Sequence record: PV223882
Source of the DNA: Escherichia phage T7
DNA: 38,432 nt
Direction: 5' to 3' (one strand)
Position numbers and translations under genes: made by a program. This document shows positions 6,269 through 6,916 of the stretch, piece by piece (the stretch's first letter is position 1; each line of letters opens with the position of its first letter). Under the pieces are notes generated by a model. That model was not told the origin of the DNA and made no database searches. It saw only the letters and a list, made by a program, of their open reading frames with translations.

Positions 6269-6529
6269 ATGTTTCGACTTCATTACAACAAAAGCGTTAA
6301 GAATTTCACGGTTCGCCGTGCTGACCGTTCAATCGTATGTGCGAGCGAGCGCCGAGCTAAGATACCTCTTATTGGTAACACAGTTCCTTTGGCACCGAGC
6401 GTCCACATCATTATCACCCGTGGTGACTTTGAGAAAGCAATAGACAAGAAACGTCCGGTTCTTAGTGTGGCAGTGACCCGCTTCCCGTTCGTCCGTCTGT
6501 TACTCAAACGAATCAAGGAGGTGTTCTGA
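6269..6529 (+). CDS. 1.6: Gene 1.6 protein (86 aa)
   Basis: [20 protein letters not shown]... in T7 position and order. Confidence 0.9.
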
Positions 6530-6564
6530 TGGGACTGTTAGATGGTGAAGCCTGGGAAAAATAA
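6529..6564 (+). pseudogene. 1.7: Gene 1.7 (nucleotide kinase) remnant: 11 codons then stop; most of the gene deleted
   Basis: [11 protein letters not shown] beginning at the TGATG overlap with 1.6; wild-type gp1.7 is ~196 aa. Confidence 0.8.
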
Positions 6565-6575
6565 GGATAAATGTT

Positions 6576-6916
<341 letters not shown>

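What the first reader, a model, noticed from the sequence alone, without database searches (positions are those of the whole stretch)
6529..6580. Gene 1.7 (nucleotide kinase) reduced to an 11-codon stub
The ORF at the 1.7 position reads [11 protein letters not shown] and is followed directly by the last codons of 1.7 (aaggataaatgttatgca taa) overlapping the gene 1.8 start. About 536 bp appear to be missing. Loss of gp1.7 is tolerated but is reported to change sensitivity to dideoxynucleosides.
Basis: partly seen in the sequence, partly recalled or inferred. Interest (0 to 1): 0.45.

Follow-up and report, generated by a model that had tools for sequence, protein, structure and literature searches.

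The report
Engineered deletion of T7 gene 1.7
The missing nucleotide-kinase gene is real, but it is a deliberate, published 536-bp deletion in a laboratory-built, genome-reduced T7 phage that carries two foreign lysin genes, so it is ordinary and already explained.

Summary
At window 6529-6564 the gene 1.7 position holds only ATG plus 10 codons and TAA ([11 protein letters not shown]). The last 23 nt of wild-type 1.7 follow, and gene 1.8 is intact. Alignment to T7 NC_001604 shows that exactly 536 bp (8198-8733) are gone.

The deletion is not natural. The whole window equals NC_001604 minus the seven 'non-essential regions' that Table S2 of Zhang et al., mBio 2025 (PMC12153263) lists for the T7-B chassis. 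One of these is 'gp1.7 8,198-8,733, 536 bp'. The window also carries a PT7-His6-LysGH15 cassette at the 7.7 site, a PT7-LyJDSS3-His6 cassette after gene 10A, and 19 SNPs.

The junction matches the paper's 80-nt recombineering oligo HA-gp1.7. The deposited T7-B, T7-B-G and T7-B-J genomes match at 100% over the three stretches compared. The length arithmetic (36016+1587+829 = 38432) identifies the window as T7-B-GJ (PV223882).

The allele is a null: the DUF3310 / PHROG 'nucleotide kinase' region (aa 20-196) is absent and no copy exists elsewhere in the window. The endpoints were inherited from CiPGr genome-reduced T7 clones (NAR 2022), shifted by exactly 1 nt.

Verdict: already known, low interest.

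The parts
6269..6529 (+). Gene 1.6, intact. Its TGA stop (6527-6529) overlaps the ATG of the 1.7 stub (ATGA), as in wild type.
   Evidence: No mismatch to NC_001604 in this block. PHROG 1777 full-length match.
6529..6564 (+). Residual gene 1.7 mini-ORF: 11 wild-type codons ([11 protein letters not shown]) followed at once by TAA. The TAA is native sequence brought into frame by the 536-bp (3n+2) deletion.
   Evidence: tblastn of WT gp1.7 finds only residues 1-11 here.
6560..6561 (.). Deletion junction. Window 6560 = WT 8197 and window 6561 = WT 8734, so NC_001604 8198-8733 (536 bp) is removed. The position is ambiguous by one A.
   Evidence: Table S2 of PMC12153263 lists gp1.7 8,198-8,733, 536 bp.
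6561..6583 (+). Retained last 23 nt of gene 1.7 (WT 8734-8756). It holds the Shine-Dalgarno-like AAGGA (6563-6567) for gene 1.8, the old 1.7 codons KDKCYA, and the old 1.7 stop (6581-6583).
6576..6722 (+). Gene 1.8, intact, with a protein identical to wild type. Its start now lies 12 nt after the stub's stop instead of overlapping the end of 1.7.
   Evidence: Predicted accessibility of its initiation region is not reduced.
6521..6600 (+). Footprint of the 80-nt single-stranded recombineering oligo HA-gp1.7 (two 40-nt arms) that created the junction.
   Evidence: Table S7 of PMC12153263. The printed oligo matches window 6521-6597 exactly over its first 77 nt. The printed text has dropped one C of a CCCC run.

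Best explanation
This is a deliberate, markerless knockout of T7 gene 1.7 (nucleotide kinase). It was made on a BAC-cloned genome segment by two-round Red/ccdB recombineering with an 80-nt oligo, then assembled with six other deletions into the 'T7-B' reduced-genome chassis. The window is the derivative T7-B-GJ, which additionally expresses two Gram-positive lysins.

The deletion removes NC_001604 8198-8733. It leaves an 11-codon mini-ORF that keeps the 1.6/1.7 ATGA overlap and stops at a native TAA just upstream of the untouched gene 1.8 ribosome-binding site and start. The allele is therefore a clean null for the kinase and is expected to be non-polar on 1.8.

Shown here: the sequence identity, the junction, loss of the whole catalytic/DUF3310 region, and viability of the chassis as reported by its makers.

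Inferred, not tested for this phage: continued 1.8 expression, resistance to dideoxythymidine, and reduced salvage of dTMP/dGMP.
For: (1) The junction equals the in-silico deletion of WT 8198-8733. It equals the published coordinates (Table S2) and the published oligo HA-gp1.7 (checked).

(2) All six other Table S2 deletions that apply to T7-B are present at the stated coordinates. Gene 19.5 is intact, as in T7-B.

(3) PV223880 (T7-B), PV223881 (T7-B-G) and PV223883 (T7-B-J) are 100% identical over the stretches queried. Window 1-21671 and 22500-28029 equal PV223881 exactly. 36016+1587+829 = 38432, the window length, and Table S1 assigns T7-B-GJ to PV223882.

(4) The two inserts encode N-His6 LysGH15 (507 aa) and a C-His6 254-aa lysin, each behind TAATACGACTCACTATAGG plus the phi10 leader. 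This is as the paper describes.

(5) In WT gp1.7, DUF3310 lies at aa 122-184 and the PHROG 2585 'nucleotide kinase' match covers aa 20-196. None of this survives, and no second copy exists in the window.

(6) The makers report plaque size comparable to wild type and burst size 197 against 224 for T7-B.
Against: PV223882 itself is not in the searchable collection, so identity with that record rests on arithmetic plus the three sibling records. The phenotypes (ddT resistance, normal 1.8 expression) were not measured for this construct in the paper's passages I read. The accessibility calculation is only a prediction.
Confidence: 0.97

Rival explanations
1. A spontaneous deletion between short direct repeats arose during propagation of a natural or laboratory T7 stock. 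T7 is known to lose DNA between short repeats.
For: The endpoints lie in an imperfect 9-nt repeat, TGGGAAAAA (WT 8190-8198) and TGAGAAACA (8726-8734). In the CiPGr clones the same 536-bp loss sits in a register with 4 bp of exact microhomology (GAAA). A random deletion reaches that level with P about 0.018. So the original event that defined these endpoints may well have been spontaneous.
Against: In the window's own register the exact microhomology is only 1 bp. The junction matches a synthetic oligo. It co-occurs with six other tabulated deletions and two His-tagged transgene cassettes. Among 148 phage records matching this region, only 3 SMART and 12 CiPGr engineered genomes carry a single-piece junction, and no natural isolate does.
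Confidence: 0.02
2. The apparent deletion is an assembly or sequencing artefact, such as a collapsed read-through between the two imperfect repeats, and the phage actually carries full-length 1.7.
For: Imperfect repeats flank the gap.
Against: A 9-nt imperfect repeat cannot collapse modern assemblies. The same junction is present in three independently deposited sibling genomes. The authors state that deletions were confirmed by PCR and whole-genome sequencing. The junction is the designed one.
Confidence: 0.005
3. The 11-codon stub was kept on purpose as a functional element. It would be a translational-coupling bridge that passes ribosomes from 1.6 to 1.8, or a bioactive micropeptide, rather than a by-product.
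For: The ATGA overlap with 1.6 is preserved. The stub stops 12 nt before the 1.8 ATG, and its TAA overlaps the AAGGA Shine-Dalgarno. The 1.8 initiation region stays accessible in silico.
Against: The paper describes only 'seamless deletion' of non-essential regions taken from an earlier study. The endpoints are inherited from CiPGr clones with a 1-nt coordinate slip that changes codon 11 from T to K. That argues against any design at the peptide level.
Confidence: 0.05

Closest known systems
T7-B / T7-B-G / T7-B-J / T7-B-GJ synthetic phages (SMART method; Zhang et al., mBio 2025, PMC12153263; GenBank PV223880-PV223883)
   Same: The 1.7 junction and the six other deletions are identical. The LysGH15 and LyJDSS3 cassettes, the His tags and the total length (38,432) also agree. 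Identity is 100% to the three sibling records over the stretches queried.
   Different: Nothing detected. The specific record PV223882 could not be fetched for a direct end-to-end comparison.
CiPGr genome-reduced T7 clones (Yuan et al., NAR 2022, PMC9825161; e.g. MZ375285 T7_270L, OL964741 T7_5t3)
   Same: They show the same 536-bp loss in gene 1.7, leaving an 11-codon stub and an intact 1.8. The 1.4, 3.8 and 5.3 deletions have the same sizes as in the window, each seen in at least one of these clones (T7_270L itself carries a different 3.8 deletion). The SMART paper cites this work as the source of its non-essential regions.
   Different: The junction is shifted by exactly -1 nt (WT 8197-8732), giving …TGGGAAACATAAGG… and the stub [11 protein letters not shown]. 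The same -1 offset is seen at the 1.4, 3.8 and 5.3 junctions. These clones derive from a 39,938-bp T7 with one extra base in the 0.6 region. They carry no transgenes.
Other published T7 gene 1.7 knockouts: T7 delta-1.7 of Tran et al. 2008, g1.7<>trxA replacement (PMC7697293), Cas13a-selected T7 delta-gp1.7 (PMC9712115)
   Same: The same gene is removed, and the same conclusion follows: it is non-essential under laboratory conditions.
   Different: Endpoints and construction methods differ. Those are single-gene mutants in an otherwise wild-type genome.
Wild-type T7 gp1.7 nucleotide kinase (NP_041967; Pfam DUF3310, PHROG 2585)
   Same: The genomic position between 1.6 and 1.8 is the same, and the first 11 codons and last 23 nt are retained.
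   Different: 185 of 196 residues are gone, including all of DUF3310. The window does not encode a member of this family.

Membership tests
SMART T7-B chassis delta-gp1.7 allele (PMC12153263) | Deletion of NC_001604 8198-8733 (536 bp) | tested here: met
   An in-silico deletion reproduces the window. Blocks 6128-6560 = WT 7765-8197 and 6561-9094 = WT 8734-11267. Table S2.
SMART T7-B chassis delta-gp1.7 allele (PMC12153263) | Junction sequence equals the HA-gp1.7 80-nt oligo | tested here: met
   The printed oligo matches window 6521-6597 exactly. The remaining discrepancy is a dropped C in the machine-read PDF.
SMART T7-B chassis delta-gp1.7 allele (PMC12153263) | Co-occurring deletions 0.4-0.7, 1.4, 3.8, 4.3-4.7, 5.3 and 7.7, with 19.5 retained | tested here: met
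   Five further junctions are found at the tabulated coordinates. The 7.7 site carries the insert. No gap in WT 24005-39937.
SMART T7-B chassis delta-gp1.7 allele (PMC12153263) | T7-B-GJ payloads: PT7-His6-LysGH15 at 7.7 and PT7-LyJDSS3-His6 after gene 10, total length 38,432 | tested here: met
   ORFs 16351-17874 and 21734-22498 with His6 tags, each with a T7 promoter core and phi10 leader. 36016+1587+829 = 38432.
SMART T7-B chassis delta-gp1.7 allele (PMC12153263) | End-to-end identity with GenBank PV223882 | not testable with these tools
   PV223882 is absent from the searchable phage collection. Only siblings PV223880, PV223881 and PV223883 were returned.
gp1.7-type nucleotide kinase (Pfam DUF3310 / PHROG 2585) | ORF encoding the DUF3310 region (aa 122-184 of T7 gp1.7) | tested here: not met
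   The stub has 11 residues. tblastn and blastn find no other remnant in the window.
CiPGr delta-1.7 allele (MZ375285 and 11 other clones) | Junction …CCTGGGAAACATAAGG… (WT 8197-8732) | tested here: not met
   The window has …CCTGGGAAAAATAAGG…: one mismatch at the junction, a +1 nt register.
Spontaneous microhomology-mediated deletion | Several bases of exact direct repeat at the two endpoints | tested here: not met
   1 bp in the window's register. In the CiPGr register it is 4 bp, with P(>=4) = 0.018 for random deletions. That result bears on the ancestor allele, not on this construct.

The most novel reading that the evidence does not exclude
gp1.7 has been reported to activate the EfAvs5 defence protein (PMC11897194). 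The delta-1.7 chassis might therefore, as an unplanned side effect, evade Avs5-type immunity in addition to being dideoxythymidine-resistant. That would give this engineered phage a different defence-sensitivity profile from wild-type T7. Against this, the same paper could not isolate spontaneous T7 escapers. That is hard to reconcile with loss of a non-essential gene being sufficient for escape.
Probability: 0.1. Interest if true: 0.3.

Novelty: already known. Interest (0 to 1): 0.04.

Why it matters
It matters mainly for bookkeeping. The window is a synthetic construct, so gene-content oddities in it must not be read as natural variation or evolution. These include the missing 1.4, 1.7, 3.8, 4.3-4.7 and 5.3, the truncated 0.3 and 7.7, and the staphylococcal and streptococcal lysin genes.

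For users of the T7-B chassis the practical consequences are three. It lacks the phage dTMP/dGMP kinase, so it is expected to be dideoxythymidine-resistant. It may behave differently toward defences that sense gp1.7. Its deletion junctions are offset by 1 nt from the CiPGr alleles they were copied from.

Tried and rejected
(1) I first read the BLAST overlap at the junction as a 9-bp microhomology. A base-level check showed the right-hand copy is TGAGAAACA, so exact microhomology in the window is 1 bp. I rejected the spontaneous-deletion reading for the window itself.

(2) I looked for a relocated or second copy of 1.7 (tblastn and blastn-short). There is none.

(3) PDB sequence search with WT gp1.7: no solved relative.

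(4) I tried to read the primary gp1.7 papers (PMC2453740, PMC4135679, PMC3436134). They are not held, so the ddT statement rests on titles and citations in other papers and on my own knowledge.

(5) I tried to find the CiPGr homology-template design for gp1.7 in its supplement. It is not held, so whether the CiPGr endpoints were designed or arose as CRISPR-escape deletions stays open.

(6) A T7-promoter consensus scan with at most 3 mismatches lists only 10 sites. It misses the class II promoters and the two inserted minimal promoters, so I read those directly.

(7) The first two literature searches failed on a term-length rule.

Full report
**1. What is in the sequence**

Reading window 6200-7000 and listing ORFs shows the T7 early/middle gene order: 1.3 (ligase), 1.5, 1.6, a very short ORF, 1.8, 2, 2.5. 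The ATG at 6529 overlaps the TGA of gene 1.6. It opens ATG GGA CTG TTA GAT GGT GAA GCC TGG GAA AAA TAA, which translates to [11 protein letters not shown] (6529-6564).

The bases that follow, AAGGATAAATGTTATGCATAA (6563-6583), are the last six codons (KDKCYA) and stop of wild-type gene 1.7. They contain the ATG of gene 1.8 at 6576. gp1.8 is identical to wild type. The only correction is that the remnant runs to 6583 rather than 6580.

**2. Size and position of the loss**

blastn against NC_001604 and an exact block comparison give two blocks:
- window 6128-6560 = WT 7765-8197
- window 6561-9094 = WT 8734-11267

WT 8198-8733, 536 bp, is absent. There is no other difference in the 1.6-1.8 region. 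Because 536 = 3n+2, the native TAA at WT 8735 falls in frame directly after codon 11.

Wild-type gp1.7 (196 aa) carries Pfam DUF3310 at residues 122-184. It matches PHROG 2585 'nucleotide kinase' over residues 20-196. None of that region remains. Neither tblastn with gp1.7 nor blastn with the deleted 536 bp finds a copy elsewhere in the window. The allele is a null.

**3. The window as a whole**

The 1.7 loss is one of several differences from wild type. The window equals NC_001604 with the following deletions:
- 1257-2737
- 7609-7764
- 8198-8733
- 11268-11558
- 13279-14297
- 16484-16821
- 20109-20208, where a 1587-bp insert sits in place of the deleted bases

There is also an 829-bp insert immediately after the gene 10A stop, 19 point differences, and no other indels.

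The inserts encode an N-terminally His6-tagged 507-aa protein annotated in a sibling record as LysGH15 from Staphylococcus phage GH15. The second encodes a C-terminally His6-tagged 254-aa lysin. Each sits behind TAATACGACTCACTATAGG and the phi10 leader/RBS.

**4. Provenance**

Megablast against the phage collection returns 'Mutant Escherichia phage T7 clone recombinant T7-B-G' (PV223881) and its siblings PV223880 and PV223883. They are 100% identical over the stretches queried.

The paper behind them is Zhang et al., mBio 2025, PMC12153263. It describes the SMART method. T7 was split into BAC-cloned segments. gp1.4, gp1.7, gp3.8, gp4.3-4.7, gp5.3, gp7.7 and gp19.5 were 'deleted seamlessly' by Red/ccdB two-round recombineering with 80-nt oligos, and segment F2 (0.4-0.7) was omitted. 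The chassis T7-B retains 19.5. It was then loaded with PT7-lysGH15 at 7.7 and PT7-lyJDSS3 at the gene 10 locus to give T7-B-G, T7-B-J and T7-B-GJ.

Supplementary Table S2 lists 'gp1.7 8,198-8,733, 536 bp' and every other deletion seen here. Table S7 gives the oligo HA-gp1.7, which matches window 6521-6597 base for base. Table S1 assigns T7-B-GJ to PV223882.

The lengths fit: 36,016 (T7-B) + 1,587 + 829 = 38,432, the window length. PV223882 itself is not in the searchable collection, so this last step is an inference, but a strong one.

**5. Where the endpoints came from**

Twelve CiPGr clones (MZ3752xx; Yuan et al., NAR 2022, PMC9825161) carry a single-piece junction across 1.7 with one mismatch. 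Alignment shows their junction is …TGGGAAACATAAGG…, WT 8197-8732, with stub …WET*. That is exactly 1 nt to the left of the window's junction.

The same -1 offset holds at the 1.4, 3.8 and 5.3 junctions. At 4.3-4.7 the loss has the same length but sits in another register of an imperfect 13-nt repeat.

The CiPGr parental genome is 39,938 bp, with one extra base in the 0.6 region. There gene 1.4 is 7609-7764 and gene 1.7 is 8167-8757. The simplest reading is that the SMART authors took the CiPGr coordinates and applied them to the 39,937-bp NC_001604. This is my inference.

In the CiPGr register the 1.7 and 3.8 junctions have 4 and 6 bp of exact microhomology. Random deletions in T7 reach these levels with P = 0.018 and 0.002. 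The 1.4, 4.7 and 5.3 junctions have none. So the 1.7 endpoints may originally have been set by a microhomology-mediated CRISPR-escape deletion rather than by design. I could not check the CiPGr cassette table.

**6. How it works**

Shown:
- The kinase coding sequence is gone.
- Genes 1.6 and 1.8 and their signals are untouched.
- The chassis is viable. The authors report plaque size like wild type and burst size 197±9 against 224±9.

Inferred:
- Ribosomes finishing 1.6 can still initiate at the overlapping ATG. They translate 11 codons and terminate at a TAA that overlaps the AAGGA of the 1.8 ribosome-binding site, 12 nt before its ATG.
- The predicted unpaired probability of that initiation region is not lower than in wild type (0.57-0.58 against 0.48-0.55).
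- A polar effect on 1.8 is therefore not expected.

From the literature:
- gp1.7 phosphorylates dTMP and dGMP.
- It is non-essential in the laboratory.
[quoted passage not shown] 2008, cited).
- From my own knowledge, the mechanism is phosphorylation of ddTMP toward the chain terminator ddTTP. The primary papers were not available.

The expected phenotype of this phage is ddT resistance. It was not tested in the passages I read.

**7. Rivals**

- A spontaneous deletion in this phage is contradicted by the oligo-defined junction, the 1-bp microhomology in this register, and the engineering context.
- An assembly artefact is contradicted by three sibling records and the authors' PCR and whole-genome confirmation.
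- A purposely designed functional stub is unlikely, because codon 11 differs (K against T) between the SMART allele and the CiPGr allele it was copied from.

**8. Verdict**

The feature is a published, intentional knockout in a synthetic phage: already known, of low interest.

The only mildly open question is whether losing gp1.7 changes the chassis's interaction with host defences. gp1.7 is reported to activate EfAvs5. However, that study could not obtain spontaneous T7 escapers, which argues that 1.7 loss alone is not enough.

Noticed in passing
window 6127-6128 (WT 7608|7765): The gene 1.4 deletion (WT 7609-7764) keeps the A of the 1.4 ATG and removes TAAT, positions -17 to -14 of T7 promoter phi1.5. 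The promoter now reads TTTAACGACTCACTAAAGGAGG instead of TAATACGACTCACTAAAGGAGG. CiPGr clones delete 7608-7763 and keep the T at -14. The effect on phi1.5 strength was not assessed.
   Followed up: partly
window junctions 6127/6128, 6560/6561, 9094/9095, 13000/13001: Four deletion junctions (1.4, 1.7, 3.8, 5.3) are offset by exactly +1 nt relative to the same deletions in CiPGr clones (MZ375285, OL964741). This is consistent with coordinates from a 39,938-bp T7 reference being applied to the 39,937-bp NC_001604.
   Followed up: yes
window 925-1320: The 1481-bp 0.4-0.7 deletion (WT 1257-2737) starts inside gene 0.3 (ocr). The anti-restriction protein keeps residues 1-110. It then gains a 21-aa out-of-frame tail ([20 protein letters not shown]…) in place of its acidic C-terminus. 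The endpoints lie in a 13-bp direct repeat AGGAAGTCGAGGA, and the same deletion occurs in CiPGr clone T7_20L.
   Followed up: partly
window 9087-9105: After the 3.8 deletion, the Shine-Dalgarno sequence of the essential primase/helicase gene 4A is supplied by the upstream copy of an imperfect repeat. The sequence is AGGAGGC from inside gene 3.8, replacing the native AGGAGGG. The 4A start is intact.
   Followed up: partly
window 16288-17874 and 21672-22499: There are two transgene cassettes, each with a minimal T7 promoter and the phi10 leader. They encode His6-LysGH15 (507 aa, replacing 100 bp of gene 7.7) and LyJDSS3-His6 (254 aa). The second is inserted directly after the 10A stop codon. The -1 frameshift product gp10B would therefore read into the cassette instead of its normal C-terminal extension. 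The consequence for gp10B was not examined.
   Followed up: partly
window 22583-35904 and five earlier sites: There are 19 point differences from NC_001604, and the CiPGr T7_10L genome carries the NC_001604 base at all 19 sites. Most are missense. Examples: gene 17 T118A, K211E and R212Q; gene 14 Q55 changed by two adjacent bases; gene 5 D197N; gene 1.2 Y59H; gene 11 Y4C and A40V. Fourteen of the 19 lie in the late region right of gene 10. Their origin (laboratory stock or cloning/PCR) was not investigated.
   Followed up: no
window 6269-6526 (gp1.6): T7 gp1.6 matches Pfam PF06726 'Bladder cancer-related protein BC10' at E = 8e-24, well above the family's gathering score. This is an unexpected family name for a phage protein. 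It probably reflects how the Pfam family is now built, but I did not look into it.
   Followed up: no
window 10788-10814: The 4.3-4.7 deletion lies in an imperfect 13-nt repeat (ACAGGATTCTTGA and ACAGGTTTCTTGA). CiPGr clone T7_5t3 has a loss of the same length in a different register of that repeat. This points to a spontaneous repeat-mediated event as the origin of this 'non-essential region'.
   Followed up: partly
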